The notes beneath the pieces are model-generated. The model did no database searches. It saw nothing but the letters and a program-made list of their open reading frames with translations, and was not told the DNA's origin. DNA of 64,000 bases from Acidimicrobiales bacterium. GTDB taxonomy: Bacteria > Actinomycetota > Acidimicrobiia > Acidimicrobiales > CADCSY01. Position 1 is the first letter of the stretch; each line of letters opens with the position of its first letter. Below, piece by piece: positions 33,093 to 55,441 of the stretch. The position numbers were made by a program, and so were the translations under genes. Location: NCBI GenBank assembly GCA_035540955.1, contig DATLFP010000058.1:4340-68339 (forward strand), in the 5' to 3' direction.

Positions 33093-33908
33093 TCAGAACC
33101 GGGGTGGGCGCTTGTCCTGCAGGGCGCGGACGCCCTCGGTGAAGTCCGGCTCGCCGACCATGCGCTGGAGCAGGGCGTAGGAGTCGGCGACGGAGTCGTC
33201 GAGCGATCGACCGGTCAGGTCGGCCCACAGCTGTTGCTTGATCGTTGCCAGGGACGACCGCGAGATCTCGGCGGCGATGGTGCGGGCGTAGTCGAGCGTC
33301 GCGTCGACCCCGCACACGCGATCGACGAGCCCCATCGCCAGCGCCTCCTCGGCCAGCACCACCCGCGACGAGAACAGCAGATCGGCGGCCCGGGAGCGGC
33401 CGACGAGCCGGGGGAGCAGCCACGACGACCCGTACTCGGCGGGTAGCCCCAGCCGGCCGAACGAGGTCGTGAGCTTCGCCCCCGACACGGCGAACCGAAG
33501 GTCGCAGAACAGCGCGAGCACGAGGCCGACCCCGGCCACCGGGCCGTTGATGGCGGCGATCACCGGCTTCGACATCCGCAGCTGCCACGCGAACCCCCGC
33601 TCGGGCTCTCCGCTCAGACGGCCGCTCGGGCCGGGTTCCCCGCCGCCGCCGTCGCTGTCGCCCGTACCGGGGTCGTAGGTGCCGCTCTCGGCCATCGGAC
33701 CGAGCGCGGCGGCGTCAGCGCCGGCGCAGAACCCCCGCCCGGCGCCGGTGACCACCACCACCCGCACCGCGGGGTCGGCCTCGGCGTCGGCCATCGCGGC
33801 GCGGTAGGCCGACTCCATCCGACCGGTCCACGCGTTGAGCCGCTCGGGCCGGTTCAGCGTGACGGTGGCGACGCCGCCGTCGACCTCGACCAGCACCGGC
33901 TCGCTCAC
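33093..33908 (-). CDS. enoyl-CoA hydratase/isomerase (crotonase) family
   Basis: Start at GTG 33908 gives VSEPVLVEVDGGVATVTLNRPERLNAW, followed by GRGFCAGAD and AAINGPVAGVG. It has an unusual Gly/Asp-rich insertion (GTYDPGTGDSDGGGGEPGPSG). Confidence 0.9.
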   Translation of the reverse strand: MSEPVLVEVDGGVATVTLNRPERLNAWTGRMESAYRAAMADAEADPAVRVVVVTGAGRGFCAGADAAALGPMAESGTYDPGTGDSDGGGGEPGPSGRLSGEPERGFAWQLRMSKPVIAAINGPVAGVGLVLALFCDLRFAVSGAKLTTSFGRLGLPAEYGSSWLLPRLVGRSRAADLLFSSRVVLAEEALAMGLVDRVCGVDATLDYARTIAAEISRSSLATIKQQLWADLTGRSLDDSVADSYALLQRMVGEPDFTEGVRALQDKRPPRF

Positions 33909-33991
33909 TGGCGCTCGCTGCCACGAACGTTGTCGCGCTCGCCCGCCTGCGGCGGCGCAGCGCGACAACCTTCGAAGTCGGGGCGAGTCAC
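33905..33991 (-). repeat. intergenic repeat IGR-A copy 1 with bridging mini-ORF (VTRPDFEGCRAAPPQAGERDNVRGSERQ)
   Basis: Hairpin arms CGAACGTTGTCGCG (33924-33937) / CGCGACAACCTTCG (33961-33974). The mini-ORF GTG overlaps the cysQ TGA (GTGA) and its TGA overlaps the hydratase GTG (GTGA). It aligns with 51854-51963. Confidence 0.7.
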
Positions 33992-34731
33992 CGGAGCGCG
34001 GCCAGGCACGTCTCGGCCAGCTCCGGCCGGCACACGAGCAGATCGGGAAGCCACGGGTCGCGCTCGTTGTAGCGCAACGCGGCGCCGTCGAGGCGGGAGG
34101 CGTGCAGACCGGCGGCCTGCGCCACGGCGGCCGGCGCGGCCGAGTCCCACTCGTACATGCCGCCGGCATGGGCGTAGGCGTCGACCACGCCGAGGACGAC
34201 GGCCATCGCCTTGGCGCCCGCCGATCCCATCGGCACCAGCTCGGCGCCCAGGGCTTCGGCCACGAGCACCGAGGCGTACGGTCGCCGGGTCCGGCTCGTC
34301 ACCACCCGCATCGGGCGGTCGCCGTTGGCCGGCACCTCGGGCGGGTCGTCGGTGCCGAGGACGAGGCCCATGGCGGGCAGGGCCACGGCGCCGGCCACGA
34401 GGGTCCCGTTGATCGCGAGCGCGCAGTGCACGGCCCAATCGGTGCGGCCGGGCTCGCCGAACTCCCGCGTGCCGTCGAGGGGATCGACGATCCAGGCCCG
34501 CTCGTGCGCGAGCCGCGAGGGGTCGTCGGCGCCCTCTTCCGACAGCACGGCGTCGCCGGGCCGCTCGGCCCGGAGCAGCTCGAGGATGAGCTTGTGCGCG
34601 AGCCAGTCGCCGTCGGCCCGCATGGTCTCGGGGTGCAGACCCGAGCGGGTGCGCAGCTCGAGGAGGAGGTCGCCCGCCTCGCTCACCGCCCGGCGGGCGA
34701 GGGCGTGGTCGTCGTCGCTGGCCACCGGCAC
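33988..34731 (-). CDS. cysQ: 3'(2'),5'-bisphosphate nucleotidase / inositol monophosphatase family (CysQ)
   Basis: Motifs LSEEG, WIVDPLDGTREF, EWDSAAP. Start taken at GTG 34731. It lies divergent from cysD. Confidence 0.85.
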   Translation of the reverse strand: MPVASDDDHALARRAVSEAGDLLLELRTRSGLHPETMRADGDWLAHKLILELLRAERPGDAVLSEEGADDPSRLAHERAWIVDPLDGTREFGEPGRTDWAVHCALAINGTLVAGAVALPAMGLVLGTDDPPEVPANGDRPMRVVTSRTRRPYASVLVAEALGAELVPMGSAGAKAMAVVLGVVDAYAHAGGMYEWDSAAPAAVAQAAGLHASRLDGAALRYNERDPWLPDLLVCRPELAETCLAALR

Positions 34732-50366: not shown

Positions 50367-51152
50367 GTGCCGACCGTGCGGATCGCCACCTGGAACGTAA
50401 ACTCGCTCCATGCCCGGCTGCCGCGGCTCGAGGAGTGGCTCGGCATCGCCCGCCCCGACGTCGTGTGCCTCCAGGAGACGAAGTGCGGCGACGACTCCTT
50501 CCCGACCATGGCCTTCACGACGCTCGGCTACGAGGCCGTGCACCACGGCGAGGGCCGGTGGAACGGCGTGGCGATCCTGAGCCGAGTCGGGATCGACGCC
50601 GTCGTCGACGGGTTCGCCGACGGCGGCGAGTCCGACGGCGAGGCCCGGCTGCTCACCGCCACGTGCGGTGGTGTGCGGGTGGCGACGACCTACGTCCCGA
50701 ACGGTCGGGAGGTCGGCCACGAGCAGTGGCACCGGAAGCTCGGCTGGCTCCGCCGCCTCCGAGACCACCTCGACGCGGTTGCCTCACCGGACGACGACGT
50801 CGTGCTGTGCGGTGACTTCAACGTGGCGCCCGATGACCGCGACGTGTGGGACCCGCAGCGATGTCACGGCGGCACCCACGTGAGCCCCGAGGAGCGAGAG
50901 GCGCTCGCCCACGTGCTGGGCTGGGGCCTCGTCGACACGTTGCGGGTGCGCCACCCCGACGATGCGCTCTACACCTGGTGGGACTACCAGGCCGGCGCGT
51001 TCCACAAGCACTGGGGCATGCGCATCGATCTGCTGCTCGCCAGTCGGTCCCTCTCGGATCGGCTCGAGTGGGTGCTCGTCGACCGCAACGCCCGCAAGGG
51101 GACCAAGCCGTCGGACCACGCTCCGTTCGTCGCCCAGTTCGGCCCCGGGTAG
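50367..51152 (+). CDS. xthA: exodeoxyribonuclease III
   Basis: VRIATWNVNSLHARL, VVCLQETK, GDFNVAP, SDHAPF. Start is GTG 50367 or GTG 50376. Confidence 0.9.
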   Translation: MPTVRIATWNVNSLHARLPRLEEWLGIARPDVVCLQETKCGDDSFPTMAFTTLGYEAVHHGEGRWNGVAILSRVGIDAVVDGFADGGESDGEARLLTATCGGVRVATTYVPNGREVGHEQWHRKLGWLRRLRDHLDAVASPDDDVVLCGDFNVAPDDRDVWDPQRCHGGTHVSPEEREALAHVLGWGLVDTLRVRHPDDALYTWWDYQAGAFHKHWGMRIDLLLASRSLSDRLEWVLVDRNARKGTKPSDHAPFVAQFGPG

Positions 51153-51163
51153 GTTCGCCGGCC

Positions 51164-51853
51164 GTGTCGGACGAGCAGGCCGCGAGCTGGGTCGAGCGGT
51201 GGGTGGCGCACGACGAGCCGTCGCCGCGCGTCGCCGAGATGCGCCGCCTCGCCGACGCGGCGCGGGTCGTGATCGAGCGGTTGGTCACCTCGGGGGCGCC
51301 CCACGACGCCATCGAGCGGGCGGCGTCGCACCTCGAGCAGGCCGCGGCGGCGCTCGAGGGCCCGGGTGCCGTGCGCAGCTACGAGGGGTTCGCCGAGTCG
51401 GCCAACGCCGGCGGCGACCCCCATGCCCACTTCGACCACAGCCCGGTCATGGGCACCGCCAACCCGATCGCCCCGCCGATGCGGGTCGAGTGGGGCGGCG
51501 ACAAGATCATCGTGCGGGCGGTGTTCGGCTCGGCCTACGAGGGCCCACCCGGTTCGGTCCACGGTGGCTGGATCGCCGCCGCCTTCGACGAGGTGCTCGG
51601 CATGGCGCAGTCGCTCGGTGGGAGCCCGGGCATGACCGGCACGCTCACCGTGAAGTACCGGCGGCCGACCCCGTTGCACCGTGAGCTGCGGTTCGAGGGC
51701 ACGCTCGACCGCGTCGACGGGCGCAAGATCTTCACGACCGGTCGCTGCTTCGACGGCGAGGTCCTGACCGCCGAGGCCGAGGGCCTGTTCATCCGCGTCG
51801 ACTTCCAGAAGATCGCCGACATGATGACCCGGCGCGACGCCGCCGCCCCCTGA
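51164..51853 (+). CDS. PaaI-like hotdog thioesterase with N-terminal extension
   Basis: GTG 51164. The core GSVHGGWIAAAFDEVLGMA ... TLTVKYRRPTP is typical of hotdog thioesterases. Confidence 0.75.
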   Translation: MSDEQAASWVERWVAHDEPSPRVAEMRRLADAARVVIERLVTSGAPHDAIERAASHLEQAAAALEGPGAVRSYEGFAESANAGGDPHAHFDHSPVMGTANPIAPPMRVEWGGDKIIVRAVFGSAYEGPPGSVHGGWIAAAFDEVLGMAQSLGGSPGMTGTLTVKYRRPTPLHRELRFEGTLDRVDGRKIFTTGRCFDGEVLTAEAEGLFIRVDFQKIADMMTRRDAAAP

Positions 51854-51963
51854 CTCACGAAGGTTGTCGCGCTCGCCCGGTCGGGGCGGGTGTCCGCGAC
51901 AACCTTCGAGCCCGGTCGGGGCGGGTGTCCGCGACAACCTTCGAGCTCGGTGGGGGGTGGCGG
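51854..51963. repeat. intergenic repeat IGR-A copy 2 with a perfect 35-bp internal tandem duplication
   Basis: It fills the gap between convergent genes. The left arm CGAAGGTTGTCGCG (51858-51871) is complementary to CGCGACAACCTTCG at 51895-51908 and again at 51930-51943. The units 51876-51910 and 51911-51945 are identical. Confidence 0.75.
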
Positions 51964-53970
51964 CTACGAGGCGCGGGCGTCGGCGACGACGCGGAGGAGG
52001 TCGTCGCCGTAGCGGGCCGCCTTCACCGGTCCGAGACCGGGAAGGGCGAGGAGCGCGTCGCGGTCGCGGGGCCGGGCCTCGGCCACCGCCGCCAGGGTGG
52101 TGTCGTGGAAGATCACGTAGGCGGGGACGCCCGCCGCCTTGGCCGCGGTTCGCCGCCACGCCTTGAGGGCGTCGAGCACCGCCGGGTCGGCGTCGGCGCC
52201 GATCACCGGCGTCGCCGGCCGGCTCCCGCCGCCGGTCGACCGCAGGCGTCGGCGCTCCTCGGCCACCCGCGCTCGGAGGTCGGCGGGCGCCACGCCCTGG
52301 CGTAGGGCCGCGAGCACCGCACCGATGTCGTCGAGCCACGGTGAGGGGGAGCGCCGCAGCGAGCGGGCGCCGAAGGTGCGCTCACGCGCCCAGGAGCAGT
52401 GGAGCTCGTCCTCGGCGCGGGTCACGGCGACGTACAGGAGCCGCCGCTCCTCCTCTTCGGCCGCGGGGGTCTTGGCGTGGCCGATGGGGACGAGCCCCCG
52501 CTCGAGACCGACGAGGAACACGACCGGCCACTCGAGCCCCTTGGCGGCGTGGAAGGTCGCCAGCTCCACGCCGTCGGCGACGGTCGCCCCGTTGTCGCCC
52601 CGCAGCGTGGCGTCGAGCCAGCCGGTGAACCCCTCGACGGTGGGGAGACCACCGGCGGCGGCGTACTCCCCGGCGAGGCGCACCAGCTCGGCGACGTTGC
52701 CGCGGCGCTCGGCGGCGGCGGGGGTGTCGTCGTCGTCCTCGAGCGCCCCGGCCTGCAGCCCGGCGATGCGCTCGGGGAAGGTCCCCGGCCGGCGCCGGAG
52801 CGAGGTGAGGGCATCGGCGATCTCGGGCCGGTCGAGGAAGGGCGCACCGCCGCGCACGCGATACGGGATGCCGGCGCTCCGCAGCGCCTCCTCGAGCACG
52901 ACGAGCTGCGCGTTGGTGCGGGCGAGCACGGCGAGCCGCGACCACGGCGTGCCGGGCGGGCGACGGTCGCGCACCGCCCTCGCCACCGCCCGAGCCTCGG
53001 CGTGCTCGTCGGCGAAGGCCCGCACCGACGGCAGCCGCCCGTCGGGCCGGTGGGCGCGCAGCCCGCCGCCCGGGTCGCCGAGCACGGTGGCGGCGACGGC
53101 GAGGATCTGCGGCGAGGACCGGAAGTTGTCCTCGAGCGACACGACGGTGGCGCCGGGCTCCCGGTCGCAGAACCGCGTGAGGTACGACGGCTCGGCGCCG
53201 TTCCACGCGTAGATCGCCTGGTTGGGATCGCCCACGACGCAGAGGTCGGCGTTGCCCGCCCGCCACCCGTCGAGGAGGGCGGACTGGGCGGGGTTGACGT
53301 CCTGGAACTCGTCGACGAAGAGGTGGCGGAACCGCCACCGCTGGCCGGCGGCGAACTCGCTGTCGTCGCGCAGGGCCCGGGCGCACAGGAGCAGGAGGTC
53401 GTCGAAGTCGACGAGGCGCCGGGCCCGCTTCTCCTCCTCGTAGCGGGCGTAGAGCGCGGCCATGGCGGTCGCCGCGATCGGCGTGGTACGGCCGATGCGG
53501 GCCACCTCGTCGGCGTAGCGCTCGGGCGCCACCAGCCGGGCCTTGGCCCACTCGATCTCGGCGACGAGATCGATGTGGGGCACGGCGGCGTCGCGCACGC
53601 GGCCCCGCAGCTCGGCCACAAGCGGGACCTTGCGCTTCAGGAGCGCCGGCGGCGTGATGTCGCGATCGGCCCACCGCTGCCGGAGCTGCGCGTAGGCGAT
53701 GGCGTGGAACGTGCCGGCCGCCACCTGGTCGCGCACGCCGAGCGATCCCAGCCTGGTGCGCAGCTCGCCGGCCGCCTTGCGGGTGAAGGTGAGAGCGAGG
53801 ACGTGCCGCGCCTCGGCACTGCCGGTCGCCGCCCGCCACGCGATGCGCCGGGTGAGCACCCGGGTCTTCCCCGAGCCGGCACCGGCGAGGATCACGAGCG
53901 GGGCGCCGTCGCTGGTGACGGCAGCGGCCTGGGCTTCGGTCAGCCCGTCGAGGAGACGTGTCGCGCCCAC
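51964..53970 (-). CDS. uvrD2: UvrD/PcrA-family ATP-dependent DNA helicase with C-terminal HRDC domain (UvrD2-like)
   Basis: GTG 53970. Walker A AGAGSGKTRVL, helicase motifs TFTRKAAGEL, FVDEFQD, VLARTN, LLYVAVTRA. The C-terminal HRDC is LKAWRRTAAKAAGVPAYVIFHDTTLAAVA...LPGLGPVKAARYG. The rest of the 1117-aa track ORF is read-through. Confidence 0.9.
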   Translation of the reverse strand: MGATRLLDGLTEAQAAAVTSDGAPLVILAGAGSGKTRVLTRRIAWRAATGSAEARHVLALTFTRKAAGELRTRLGSLGVRDQVAAGTFHAIAYAQLRQRWADRDITPPALLKRKVPLVAELRGRVRDAAVPHIDLVAEIEWAKARLVAPERYADEVARIGRTTPIAATAMAALYARYEEEKRARRLVDFDDLLLLCARALRDDSEFAAGQRWRFRHLFVDEFQDVNPAQSALLDGWRAGNADLCVVGDPNQAIYAWNGAEPSYLTRFCDREPGATVVSLEDNFRSSPQILAVAATVLGDPGGGLRAHRPDGRLPSVRAFADEHAEARAVARAVRDRRPPGTPWSRLAVLARTNAQLVVLEEALRSAGIPYRVRGGAPFLDRPEIADALTSLRRRPGTFPERIAGLQAGALEDDDDTPAAAERRGNVAELVRLAGEYAAAGGLPTVEGFTGWLDATLRGDNGATVADGVELATFHAAKGLEWPVVFLVGLERGLVPIGHAKTPAAEEEERRLLYVAVTRAEDELHCSWARERTFGARSLRRSPSPWLDDIGAVLAALRQGVAPADLRARVAEERRRLRSTGGGSRPATPVIGADADPAVLDALKAWRRTAAKAAGVPAYVIFHDTTLAAVAEARPRDRDALLALPGLGPVKAARYGDDLLRVVADARAS

Positions 53971-54009
53971 GTCGAACGAATGTACGGAGGGGGTGTGACA
54001 GGATGGGGG

Positions 54010-54354
54010 ATGGTCGTCCACGTGCCGCCGGAGCGGTTCGAGGAGCTCGTCGGCGAGGCCCTCGACGGCATCCCCGAGGAGCTGGCCCGCCACATCGACA
54101 ACGTCGTGATCCGGGTCCAGGACGAGTCCCGCGCCGGACTGCTCGGGCTCTACGAGGGCATCCCCCTGACCCGCCGTGAGCAGTACGGCGCCCTGGCGAT
54201 GCCCGATCGCATCACGATCTACCGCAACCCCATCCTCCGCCGGTCGCGGACCGAGACCGAGGTGGTCCACCAGGTGCGGGTGACGGTCATCCACGAGATC
54301 GCCCACCACTTCGGCATCAGCGACGCTCGCCTGCACGAGCTGGGCTGGGCCTGA
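54010..54354 (+). CDS. small zinc metallopeptidase-family protein (DUF1025-like, HExxH)
   Basis: 114 aa. MVVHVPPERFEELVGEALDGIPEEL ... VIHEIAHHFG. Confidence 0.8.
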   Translation: MVVHVPPERFEELVGEALDGIPEELARHIDNVVIRVQDESRAGLLGLYEGIPLTRREQYGALAMPDRITIYRNPILRRSRTETEVVHQVRVTVIHEIAHHFGISDARLHELGWA

Positions 54355-54396
54355 ACGGGCACAACGTCGAGCCGGGCGCGGCATAGCGTCGGGGCC

Positions 54397-54933
54397 GTGC
54401 CGCACGTCGCCGTGACCGCCGTGGGCGTCGACCGACCCGGCATCGTCGCCGCCGTGACCGGGGTGCTCCTCGACCACGGCGGCAACCTCGAGGACACGGC
54501 CATGACCAGGCTGGGCGGCCACTTCGCGATGGTCCTGGTGGTCGAGGTGCCGGGGGCCGAGGACGCGGCCGGCCTGGAGCAGGCCCTTGCCGCCGGCACC
54601 GCCGACCTCGGGCTCACGGTGACGGTCCGGCCCATCGGCGAGGTGGCCGAGGTCGCCGAGACCGGCTCGCCGTGGGCGGTGACCGTGCACGGGGCCGACC
54701 AGCCCGGGATCGTGCACCGCGTGGCGACGACCCTGGCCGGGCACGGCGCCAACATCGTCGACCTCTCGACCCGCCGGCTCACCACAGGCGCCGGCACCGG
54801 GTACGTGGTCCTGCTCGAGGTGCTGCTCCCGACCGGTGTCGACGAGGGGGCCGTCGAGGCCGACCTCGACCGGCTCGCCGCCGACCTCGGCGTCGAGGTG
54901 CACCTGCGGGCCGACGAGGCCGACGTCTTGTGA
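54397..54933 (+). CDS. tandem ACT-domain protein (GcvR-like)
   Basis: 178 aa with two ACT-like halves (VTAVGVDRPGIVAAVTGVLLDHGGNL and VTVHGADQPGIVHRVATTLAGHGANI). GTG start. Confidence 0.8.
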   Translation: MPHVAVTAVGVDRPGIVAAVTGVLLDHGGNLEDTAMTRLGGHFAMVLVVEVPGAEDAAGLEQALAAGTADLGLTVTVRPIGEVAEVAETGSPWAVTVHGADQPGIVHRVATTLAGHGANIVDLSTRRLTTGAGTGYVVLLEVLLPTGVDEGAVEADLDRLAADLGVEVHLRADEADVL

Positions 54934-54943
54934 GCGCGCGTCG

Positions 54944-55441
54944 GTGATCCGGCCGGTCCGGTTCTTCCCGGACCCCGTCCTCGCAGGTCGGTGCACGGCG
55001 GTCGGCGAGATCGACGACGCCGCGCTGGCCCTCGGGCGCGACCTCCTCGACACGATGCGGGGCTCGTCGCACTCCGTCGGCGTGGCCGCACCCCAGATCG
55101 GGGTGGCGCGGCGTGCGTTCTGCGTGGACGTGAGCGGCCACCCCAAGGCCCGCTCGTGCCACGGCGAGGTCGTCCTGTTCGATCCCGTGGTGGTGGAGCG
55201 GGCCGGCGCCCACGTGGGGCGGGAGGGGTGCATGAGCGTTCCCGATCTCACCGGCGACGTGCTCCGCGCCGCGACGATCGTCGTGCGGGGCCTCGGCCTC
55301 GACGGCGAGGAGCGCACGATCGAAGCGGACGCGTTCGAGGCTCGGGCCGTGCAGCACGAGCTCGACCATCTCGACGGTCTGCTCTTCCTCGACCGCGTCG
55401 TGGCCGCCGACCGCCTCTACCGCCGCCGCGTCTACCGGTAG
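54944..55441 (+). CDS. def: peptide deformylase
   Basis: GTG 54944. The three PDF motifs are GVAAPQIG, EGCMSVP and QHELDHLDG. Confidence 0.85.
   Translation: MIRPVRFFPDPVLAGRCTAVGEIDDAALALGRDLLDTMRGSSHSVGVAAPQIGVARRAFCVDVSGHPKARSCHGEVVLFDPVVVERAGAHVGREGCMSVPDLTGDVLRAATIVVRGLGLDGEERTIEADAFEARAVQHELDHLDGLLFLDRVVAADRLYRRRVYR

What the first reader, a model, noticed from the sequence alone, without database searches (positions are those of the whole stretch)
33905..33991. IGR-A subtype: 14-bp palindromic arm element (CGAAGGTTGTCGCG / CGCGACAACCTTCG) at two loci
33905-33991 and 51854-51963 share CACGAA(C/G)GTTGTCGCGCTCGCCC ... GCGACAACCTTCGA(A/G) ... GTCGGGGCG in the same orientation. Each can form a long hairpin: 14-bp arms with one mismatch in copy 1, and perfect arms in copy 2. 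Copy 1 is exactly the spacer between cysQ and the downstream enoyl-CoA hydratase gene. It is read through by a 28-codon ORF with GTGA overlaps at both ends. Copy 2 sits at the 3' ends of two convergent genes.
Basis: seen in the sequence. Interest (0 to 1): 0.6.

Follow-up and report, generated by a model that had tools for sequence, protein, structure and literature searches.

The report
Palindromic gene-end repeat with nuclease partner
The two flagged sequences are ordinary copies of a 51-base hairpin-forming repeat found about 50 times in this uncultured soil Acidimicrobiales genome, and the repeat family matters because two copies always bracket one conserved DNA-binding nuclease gene, much as REP repeats bracket their transposase.

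Summary
Both loci carry the stated arms. Copy 1 fills the cysQ-echA spacer and copy 2 lies between convergent gene ends.

They are not a separate subtype. They belong to one 51-nt palindromic family, CGAACCTTGTCGCG-N23-CGCGACAAGGTTCG. It has about 48 copies in this genome and occurs in 23 of 33 genomes of the family. The CC/GG dinucleotide that defines the "subtype" assorts independently on the two arms.

Copies lie 0-35 nt after stop codons and never between divergent starts. Five supply the last codons and the stop codon of a gene. Orthologous sites in the sister species lack the element in 7 of 7 comparisons, so it moves.

No RAYT transposase occurs in any carrier genome. No target duplication and no U-tract were found.

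Unexpectedly, in 16 loci from different genomes two copies bracket one roughly 300-aa gene. Its product has an AbiEi-like DNA-binding half and a Vsr/homing-endonuclease-like nuclease half. Paralogues of the gene are bracketed by their own different palindromes, most tagged GTTCT.

Best reading: a REP/RAYT-like repeat-enzyme partnership built on a different enzyme, with solo copies serving as gene-end hairpins. That the nuclease acts on the repeats is inferred, not shown.

The parts
33924..33974 (.). Copy 1 of the 51-nt palindromic element. Left arm 33924-33937, inner hairpin 33938-33960, right arm 33961-33974. Arm dinucleotides are CG..CC.
   Evidence: Covariance model R1 scores it 63 bits.
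33905..33991 (-). 28-codon ORF that reads through copy 1. Its GTG overlaps the cysQ stop (GTGA) and its TGA overlaps the echA GTG start (GTGA). It is probably a translational-coupling bridge; that is inferred.
   Evidence: The same frame and geometry occur at C73:27905 (ATGA..ATGA). Strain-level contigs carry GTGA or ATGA at the upstream end.
33988..34731 (-). cysQ-like inositol-monophosphatase-family gene (247 aa as called in public assemblies), upstream of copy 1.
   Evidence: Pfam Inositol_P; exact look-up.
33093..33908 (-). Enoyl-CoA hydratase gene (271 aa), downstream of copy 1.
   Evidence: Pfam ECH_1/ECH_2; exact look-up.
51858..51908 (.). Copy 2 of the element, with perfect GG..CC outer arms.
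   Evidence: R1 scores it 60 bits.
51910..51944 (.). Exact 35-nt tandem duplicate of the loop plus right arm of copy 2, a half-copy.
   Evidence: D1, 100% identity; nhmmer partial hit.
50846..51853 (+). 4HBT thioesterase-domain gene that ends 4 nt before copy 2. Its start is uncertain.
51964..55317 (-). UvrD/HRDC helicase ORF that ends 20 nt after the duplicated half-copy. Its start is uncertain.

Best explanation
Both loci are solo copies of a lineage-specific, 51-nt palindromic interspersed repeat. Its structure is a 24-bp stem, a 3-nt loop and a recurrent mismatch at the sixth base pair. The family is restricted to one family of soil Acidimicrobiales. It has been inserted or lost recently, because sites differ between sister species. 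Copies survive almost only within about 35 nt after stop codons. There the transcript can form a hairpin of about -40 kcal/mol that most likely protects or defines mRNA 3' ends in both directions (inferred). Where a copy landed in an overlapping stop/start junction, as at cysQ-echA, a through-element mini-ORF that ends on the next start codon probably keeps translational coupling (inferred). The family is not a REP/RAYT system. Instead, two copies bracket a conserved gene for an AbiEi-like DNA-binding module fused to a Vsr/EDxHD-type nuclease. Paralogues of that gene are bracketed by their own palindrome families. I therefore read this nuclease as the cognate trans-acting protein that recognises, and probably mobilises or maintains, its own palindrome family, analogous to RAYT and REPINs. 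The bracketing is shown. The enzymatic link is inferred.
For: Dispersal:
- The genome holds 21 exact arms and about 48 full copies at about 43 loci, several of them at contig ends.
- The exact core is absent from 297 other Acidimicrobiia genomes.
- True copies occur only in Acidimicrobiales or Actinomycetota soil MAGs among 185,000 species.
- Model R1 finds the family in 23 of 33 genomes and 8 of 12 genera of the family.

Structure:
- 84.9% of cells pair, against 72.9% in shuffles.
- There are 305 double-sided changes, against 125 in shuffles (0 of 500 shuffles reach the observed value).
- Inner stems are lineage-specific.
- Mean folding energy is -40 kcal/mol.

Context:
- 18 copies lie between convergent genes, 15 between co-directional genes and none between divergent genes.
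- Copies lie 0-35 nt from a stop codon.
- Five genes end inside the element with the peptide ..RTLSR*.

Mobility:
- The element is absent at the orthologous site in the congener in 7 of 7 comparisons.
- The C73 junction is overlapping or near-abutting genes in G011, G009, G002 and G004.
- The insertion is fixed and identical in strain-level contigs.

Partner gene:
- Copies lie on both sides of the gene, 1-70 nt away, in 16 loci. These are G000 (C179 plus C38), G009, G024, G048, G019, G023, G046, G042, G012, G002 and seven loci from six further public assemblies, counted as six distinct loci.
- Paralogues are bracketed by other palindromes in G000 C224 and C186 and in 5 of 7 further loci.
- Domains are AbiEi_4 and REase_MTES_1575, and PADLOC AbiEi models match at E 1e-22.
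- The AF2 model has pLDDT 92. Its fold matches AbiEi (6y8q), Rv2827c, the I-Bth0305I catalytic domain (target TM-score 0.80), Vsr and the DUF559-like 3hrl.
- The residues D, E and WH of the nuclease motif are invariant.
- AbiEi proteins bind inverted repeats (PMC7319586, PMC3985639).
Against:
- There is no U-tract, so the element is not a canonical intrinsic terminator.
- There is no target-site duplication and no excision footprint, so the mode of movement is unknown.
- The phyletic link between nuclease orthologue and element is only modest. Twelve of 13 genomes with an orthologue have the element, against 11 of 20 without, Fisher p = 0.05. The genomes are incomplete MAGs, and one 100%-complete genome, G008, has 12 hits counted on both strands but no homologue.
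- Bracketing could instead mean that the palindromes are the ends or targets of a nuclease-carrying selfish unit, or operators of the gene.
- REase_MTES_1575 scores fall below Pfam's cut-off when a single sequence is used.
- The G000 bracket relies on joining contigs C179 and C38 through an overlap of about 138 nt.
Confidence: 0.65

Rival explanations
1. The element is purely a host-selected, factor-dependent terminator or 3'-end motif, like mycobacterial TRIT. It spreads by ordinary duplication and gene conversion. The nuclease gene merely uses two copies as its own terminator or insulator.
For: Copies sit tightly against stop codons and are bidirectional. Other hairpins occupy the same sites in the sister species. 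TRIT shows the same genomic behaviour (PMC3152330).
Against: Sixteen loci show a copy on the promoter side of the nuclease gene as well, which a terminator role does not explain. Each paralogue has its own palindrome. Copies lie inside operons 4-30 nt before the next start codon. There is no U-tract.
Confidence: 0.15
2. The unit [palindrome]-nuclease gene-[palindrome] is itself the selfish element, either homing-endonuclease-like or IS-like. Solo palindromes are then its MITE-like remnants or its target sites, not passengers of a domesticated enzyme.
For: The catalytic domain resembles the homing endonuclease I-Bth0305I. The C186 paralogue lies between 27-nt inverted repeats, as a transposon with terminal inverted repeats would. 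The gene sits in different neighbourhoods in different genomes. Tandem doublets with a 61-nt period could be unoccupied sites.
Against: There is one gene copy per palindrome family per genome, against tens of solo copies. The orthologue sits at the same mfd-pth position in at least four assemblies, which indicates vertical inheritance. The flanking copies are complete palindromes, not split halves.
Confidence: 0.2
3. The element is a MIRU-like translated intercistronic element. Its essential feature is the mini-ORF that couples neighbouring genes.
For: Copy 1 (GTGA..GTGA, 28 codons), C73:27905 (ATGA..ATGA, 27 codons) and C202 (ORF ending TGATG) use the same frame through the element. The start codon varies GTG/ATG among strains and remains a start codon. 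MIRUs couple at -4 (PMC12548453).
Against: Only 3 of 13 co-directional copies show this arrangement. Eighteen copies lie between convergent genes, where no such ORF can act. In five genes a different frame of the element is used.
Confidence: 0.1
4. The GG..CC and CG..CC copies form a distinct sub-lineage, the reader's 'IGR-A subtype', with its own master copy.
For: The window pair and the pair at C106:4483 and C106:5286 show the same CG..CC plus GG..CC combination.
Against: The arm states assort independently. The inner stems of the four copies are unrelated. The same kind of in-place complement flip occurs at stem positions 14, 16 and 22, and as AA/TT flips in other genera.
Confidence: 0.05

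Closest known systems
REP/REPIN elements with RAYT transposases (Proteobacteria; PMC2817692, PMC3116915, PMC3733652)
   Same: Both are short extragenic palindromes in tens of copies. Both have a conserved tag at the stem base and a variable stem. Both are lineage-specific families that are often doubled. In both, a partner gene present once per repeat family is bracketed by its own repeats. Different paralogue-repeat pairs coexist in one genome.
   Different: No Y1 (PF01797) gene occurs in any carrier genome. The tag is CGTTCT or CGAACN, not GTAG or CGTC. The partner is an AbiEi-like wHTH module fused to a Vsr-type PD-(D/E)xK nuclease. The phylum is Actinomycetota.
TRIT, the 'tuberculosis Rho-independent terminator' motif of Mycobacterium (Gardner et al. 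2011, PMC3152330)
   Same: Both are sequence-conserved palindromic hairpins found in 50-150 copies. Both are bidirectional, lie in a narrow position at or just inside gene ends, lack a canonical U-tract and are restricted to one actinobacterial lineage.
   Different: The sequence and the taxon differ. No associated gene has been reported for TRIT. Termination was not tested here.
MIRU (mycobacterial interspersed repetitive units; as summarised in PMC12548453)
   Same: At copy 1 and at C73 the insert sits at an overlapping stop/start junction. A short ORF runs through it and is coupled at -4 to the downstream gene.
   Different: Most copies are not intercistronic. The element is a perfect hairpin. 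Tandem arrays are limited to doublets.
AbiEi antitoxins (6y8q; Rv2827c 1zel) and Vsr/EDxHD nucleases (Vsr 1cw0; I-Bth0305I 3r3p; DUF559-like 3hrl)
   Same: The fold of the N-terminal ~200 residues matches AbiEi. The fold of the C-terminal ~100 residues matches Vsr-type nucleases. AbiEi binds inverted repeats.
   Different: No AbiEii toxin gene lies beside the gene. The gene is not in an intron. Here the two modules are fused and the gene is bracketed by dispersed palindromes.

Membership tests
REP/REPIN-RAYT | Short extragenic palindromic repeat in many copies | tested here: met
   About 48 copies of 51 nt with a 24-bp stem
REP/REPIN-RAYT | GTAG or CGTC tag at the stem base | tested here: not met
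   The ends are CGAACN or CGTTCT
REP/REPIN-RAYT | RAYT (Y1_Tnp, PF01797) gene in the genome, flanked by the repeats | tested here: not met
   No match in G000. Only 2 of 33 family genomes match, both non-carriers. Positive controls matched
TRIT | Conserved palindromic hairpin at or near stop codons, bidirectional | tested here: met
TRIT | Match to the TRIT covariance model, with distribution limited to Mycobacterium | not testable with these tools
   The TRIT model was not available. No Rfam hit was found. The taxon is Acidimicrobiales
Canonical intrinsic terminator | GC-rich hairpin followed by a U-tract | tested here: not met
   The longest T run is 2 or fewer in 85 of 92 flanks. The scanner found no terminator-like site
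MITE | Target-site duplication and a parent IS with the same terminal repeats | tested here: not met
   Flank longest common substring is 4.98 against a null of 4.67, with no fixed-distance repeat. No distant arm pairs exist except a copy split by an IS481-family element
MIRU | Intercistronic insert with an ORF overlapping the neighbouring stop and start | tested here: inconclusive
   Seen at 3 of 13 co-directional copies. It cannot apply to the 18 convergent copies
AbiE type IV toxin-antitoxin (for the partner protein) | AbiEi fold together with an adjacent AbiEii (DUF1814) toxin gene | tested here: not met
   The AbiEi fold is met. The neighbours are mfd, pth, ECH, SDR or AMP-binding genes, and no toxin gene is present
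Vsr/DUF559/EDxHD nucleases (for the partner protein) | Vsr-like PD-(D/E)xK fold with a conserved acidic and histidine motif | tested here: met
   Target TM-score is 0.80 to 3r3p and 0.69 to 3hrl. D238, G252, W255 and H256 are invariant and E249 is nearly so. Pfam PF18741 is below its cut-off on single sequences but is recorded for most homologues

The most novel reading that the evidence does not exclude
This is an undescribed counterpart of the REPIN-RAYT partnership. Families of GTTCT-tagged palindromic repeats are each recognised and propagated by their own, vertically inherited AbiEi-Vsr fusion nuclease, present once per repeat family, rather than by a Y1 transposase. Several orthogonal nuclease-palindrome pairs coexist in one Acidimicrobiales genome.
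Probability: 0.45. Interest if true: 0.8.

Novelty: new variant of a known kind. Interest (0 to 1): 0.6.

Why it matters
REP-type repeats are common, but only one partner enzyme class, the RAYT, is known. Most REP-like families outside Proteobacteria, including mycobacterial TRIT, have no known agent. Here a large family of proteins carries only uninformative database names: 'AbiEi antitoxin domain', 'very-short-patch-repair endonuclease' or 'regulator of viral defence system'. At least 1295 homologues were found. In every well-assembled case examined from this lineage, the gene is flanked by its own dispersed palindrome. If the nuclease acts on the repeats, this gives a testable mechanism for the spread of palindromic repeats in Actinomycetota. 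It would also give a new sequence- or structure-specific nuclease scaffold with naturally diversified specificities. Finally, it would explain why these genes sit on short contigs in metagenome assemblies. For annotation, it shows that the small ORFs and extended C-termini at these sites are by-products of element insertion.

Tried and rejected
- Rfam gave no family at gathering threshold for the whole window or at E <= 10 locally.
- The RAYT/Y1 search was negative in all carrier genomes.
- Parent IS: the only separated half-copies, at C162, are one element split in its loop by an IS481-family insertion with a 15-nt duplication. It is not a parent.
- Target-site duplication: none was consistent. 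The GTGA/ATGA pairs at two operon junctions may be duplicated stop/start overlaps, but two cases prove nothing.
- A literature search by the sequence words found only primers. Word searches found nothing on Acidimicrobiia repeats or on DUF559 with palindromes.
- The gene flanked by two copies at C106 is a TauE exporter and is not relevant.
- Pfam on the longest ORFs beside the G000 nuclease gene gave nothing, because the frames were wrong. GC3-guided frames show that the G000 gene is not at the mfd-pth locus.
- The PDB sequence-profile search and NCBIfam gave nothing for the nuclease.
- Orientation of asymmetric copies relative to transcription (about 5-6 against 1) involves too few cases to interpret.

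Full report
**1. Observation**

- Copy 1 core is 33924-33974. Its arms are CGAACGTTGTCGCG and CGCGACAACCTTCG, with one mismatch.
- Copy 2 core is 51858-51908 with perfect arms. An exact 35-nt tandem duplicate of the loop plus right arm follows at 51910-51944.
- The arm occurs 6 times in the window at up to 2 mismatches, against 1.18 expected. No shuffle of 100 reached 6.
- Pfam confirms the neighbours: an Inositol_P (cysQ-like) gene and an ECH_1 gene on the minus strand around copy 1, and a 4HBT thioesterase converging on a UvrD/HRDC helicase around copy 2.
- The 28-codon ORF with GTGA overlaps at both ends is real. Public gene calls use the same echA start.

**2. One family, not a subtype**

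The window is C58:4340-68339 of a 4.24-Mb, 72% G+C, 268-contig assembly. The assembly is an uncultured soil Acidimicrobiales MAG (record titles of relatives; earlier notes).

A genome-wide search finds 21 exact arms. It also finds a 51-nt element with a fixed 39 nt from TTGTCGCG to CGCGACAA. The consensus is CGAACCTTGTCGCG-CTCGCCCGGC-nnn-GCCGGGCGAG-CGCGACAAGGTTCG. nhmmer and a covariance model give about 48 copies at about 43 loci, several at contig ends.

- In 46 copies the left/right combinations are CC..GG 23, CC..CC 13, GG..GG 5 and GG..CC 5.
- Independent arms predict 21.9, 14.1, 6.1 and 3.9.
- The GG..CC and CG..CC copies in the window are therefore chance pairings of arm variants.
- The same kind of in-place complement flip occurs at stem positions 14, 16 and 22. 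It also occurs as AA/TT in other genera, where CGTTCT replaces CGAACN.

**3. Structure**

An ungapped alignment of 93 copies from eleven genomes supports a 24-bp stem with a 3-nt loop.
- 84.9% of cells pair, against 72.9% in shuffles.
- There are 305 double-sided changes, against 125 in shuffles (0 of 500 shuffles reach the observed value).
- Slid controls pair at about 40%.
- The inner stem is rewritten between genomes but stays paired.
- The sixth base pair is unpaired in 40 of 93 copies, a recurrent mismatch.
- Mean folding energy of the 51-mers is -40 kcal/mol.
- The window spacers fold with z-scores of -2.7 to -3.9.
- There is no U-tract. The longest T run is 2 or fewer in 85 of 92 flanks, and the terminator scan finds nothing.
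- No Rfam family matches.

**4. Distribution**

- The exact core is absent from 297 other Acidimicrobiia genomes.
- In a scan of one genome per species, true copies occur only in Acidimicrobiales or Actinomycetota soil MAGs. Other hits are single chance matches with unpaired interiors.
- Model R1 finds the family in 23 of 33 genomes and 8 of 12 genera of the taxonomic family, with up to about 40 copies per genome.

**5. Genomic context**

Frames were assigned from GC3 phase.
- 18 copies lie between convergent genes, 15 between co-directional genes and none between divergent starts.
- Almost every copy is 0-35 nt from a stop codon.
- In five genes the reading frame (GC3 0.95-0.96) runs into the element and ends there, typically as ..RTLSR* (one copy runs 7 codons further before its stop). 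The element therefore supplies the C-terminus and the stop codon.
- Five loci hold tandem doublets with a 61-62-nt period.
- One copy is split in its loop by an IS481-family element with a 15-nt duplication.

**6. Mobility**

*cysQ-echA junction.* In the congener G001, cysQ (stop TAG) abuts or overlaps echA with no element. G004 has a 34-nt spacer and G012 a spacer of about 105 nt, and neither contains the element.

*Copy 2's position.* G001 has two small genes and no element there. Those genes are absent from G000.

*Reverse comparison.* Five G001 copies with recognisable flanks are all absent at the G000 site. At one of these sites G000 carries a related palindrome instead.

The element is thus present in one congener and absent in the other at 7 of 7 comparable sites. 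Within the species the cysQ-echA insert is fixed and identical in six other contigs. No consistent target-site duplication exists.

**7. The mini-ORF**

At 3 of 13 co-directional junctions an ORF in the same frame through the element (E-x-C-R...R-D-N-V/L-R) ends on the next gene's start codon.
- Copy 1: GTGA..GTGA.
- C73:27905: ATGA..ATGA, 27 codons.
- C202: TGATG.

The C73 junction is overlapping genes in G011, G009 and G002 and a 9-nt spacer in G004. In G001 it holds a different insert of about 88 nt, which is also bridged by a 30-codon ORF running GTGA..ATGA.

Strain contigs carry GTGA or ATGA at the cysQ stop, so a start codon is kept.

This parallels what is described for MIRUs (PMC12548453). 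I read it as survival of only those operon-junction insertions that preserve translational coupling. That is inferred.

**8. Partner gene**

No Y1/RAYT gene exists in G000 or in any carrier genome. An earlier scan note reported a bracketed endonuclease gene for another Acidimicrobiia repeat. Prompted by it, I checked loci that hold two copies.

*First cases.*
- In G009 and in MAG MSU bin97, two copies about 1 kb apart bracket homologous genes of about 300 aa.
- G000 has the orthologue at the end of C179, directly after an element doublet.
- C179 overlaps C38 by about 138 nt. There the gene ends, and a second doublet follows 9 nt later.

*Across the family.* I fetched homologues across the taxonomic family and scanned them with R1.
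- Copies lie on both sides in G009, G024, G048, G019, G023, G046, G042 and G012, and in G002, where the gene is split over two contig ends.
- Copies lie on one side only in G020 and G010.

*Unrelated public assemblies.*
- The gene lies between mfd and pth with copies on both sides in four assemblies (three distinct loci), and upstream only in a fifth.
- It is bracketed in three further, different neighbourhoods.

*Paralogues.*
- G000 C224 is bracketed by another dispersed palindrome, pal2, found at about 13 loci.
- G000 C186 lies between 27-nt inverted repeats of a third dispersed family.
- Five of seven further paralogue loci have their own flanking palindromes, most beginning with GTTCT.

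Element copies occupy roughly 1% of gene ends, so double bracketing in 16 loci cannot be chance.

**9. The protein**

- Pfam finds AbiEi_4 (above its cut-off) and REase_MTES_1575 (below its cut-off).
- PADLOC AbiEi models cover residues 6-174 at E 1e-22.
- At least 1295 homologues exist. Their database names are only generic, and most lie on contigs of 1-2 kb.
- An AlphaFold model built from 46 sequences has pLDDT 92.3.
- The N-terminal ~200 residues match AbiEi (6y8q) and Rv2827c (1zel).
- The C-terminal ~100 residues match the I-Bth0305I homing-endonuclease catalytic domain (target TM-score 0.80), Vsr, PvuRts1I/AbaSI and the DUF559-like 3hrl.
- The motif D...E-x-x-G-x-x-W-H is conserved: invariant in the bracketed set, and in the 46-sequence alignment too except that E is in at least 90% of sequences.
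- AbiEi proteins bind inverted repeats (PMC7319586, PMC3985639).
- No AbiEii toxin gene lies beside the gene.

**10. Interpretation**

*Shown:*
- a dispersed, structured, recently mobile palindromic family at gene ends;
- the absence of RAYT;
- systematic bracketing of a nuclease gene by its cognate palindrome, with paralogue-specific pairs.

*Inferred:*
- that the nuclease recognises and propagates or maintains the repeats, as RAYT does for REPINs;
- that solo copies act as 3' hairpins;
- that the cysQ-echA mini-ORF preserves coupling.

*Weak points:*
- The phyletic correlation is modest (Fisher p = 0.05).
- The genomes are incomplete MAGs.

*Closest known systems:* REP/REPIN-RAYT, for which the tag and enzyme tests failed, and TRIT (PMC3152330), which behaves the same way at gene ends.

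*Verdict:* the two flagged loci are ordinary members of the family and the "subtype" is not real. The family as a whole is a new variant of the repeat-plus-partner-enzyme theme.

Noticed in passing
G000 C179:34562-35475 joined to C38:1-275 (outside the window): An AbiEi-Vsr fusion nuclease gene lies between two doublets of the element (C179:34381-34492 and C38:164-275). The linkers GGTCTCGTC(T/A) and the inner stems are shared between the two doublets.
   Followed up: yes
G000 C224:6342-7362, C186:6852-7894, and L215, L216, L217, L234, L236: Paralogues of the nuclease are each bracketed by a different palindrome. These include pal2 (GTTCTGGGCGGGATCTGCCGG..) and pal3 (CAAGATCTCGGAGYACTCAGACCGGTA). 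Most of the palindromes begin with GTTCT. pal2 and pal3 are themselves dispersed, at about 13 and about 12 loci.
   Followed up: partly
G000 C179:34520-34561 and C224:6390-6426: The motif GTGACTGTCACACCCCG lies between the upstream palindrome and the start codon of both nuclease paralogues. It may be an autoregulatory operator.
   Followed up: no
G000 C22:9866, C28:34719, C32:35251, C75:32098, C174:7036, C187:3484 and ~17380, C193:15877, C217:3748, C221:1987, C257:15770, C261:481: A sister repeat family, TCTTGTGGCG-N25-CGCCACAAGA, has the same architecture with one compensated C/G flip in the core. At one site it occupies in G000 the position that family A occupies in G001. One copy lies next to a weak nuclease homologue on C257.
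   Followed up: partly
G000 C162:11536-12876 (locus L031 1037-2377): An IS481-family element (388-aa rve transposase) is inserted in the loop of a family-A copy, with a 15-nt target duplication CCCGGTCGCGGCGGA.
   Followed up: yes
G001 locus L184 1695-1787: At the AAA-ATPase/VWA junction the sister species carries a different insert of about 88 nt. It too is bridged by a 30-codon ORF with GTGA and ATGA overlaps.
   Followed up: no
G001 locus L194 2097-2960, compared with window 51854-51963: Two small genes lie between the helicase and the thioesterase in G001: a 165-aa protein and a roughly 100-aa protein with a sigma-70 region-4-like tail. They are absent from G000, where the 1.5-copy element sits. 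The gap may be a deletion associated with the repeat.
   Followed up: partly
   Followed up: no
loci L108 (Pseudonocardiaceae) and L121 (Melainabacteria): An unrelated, near-identical palindrome TTGTCGCGACTACA..TGTAGTCGCGACAA turned up in two distant phyla in the pattern scan.
   Followed up: no
G001 loci L038 and L055: Two copies in the sister species lie directly beside tRNA genes.
   Followed up: no
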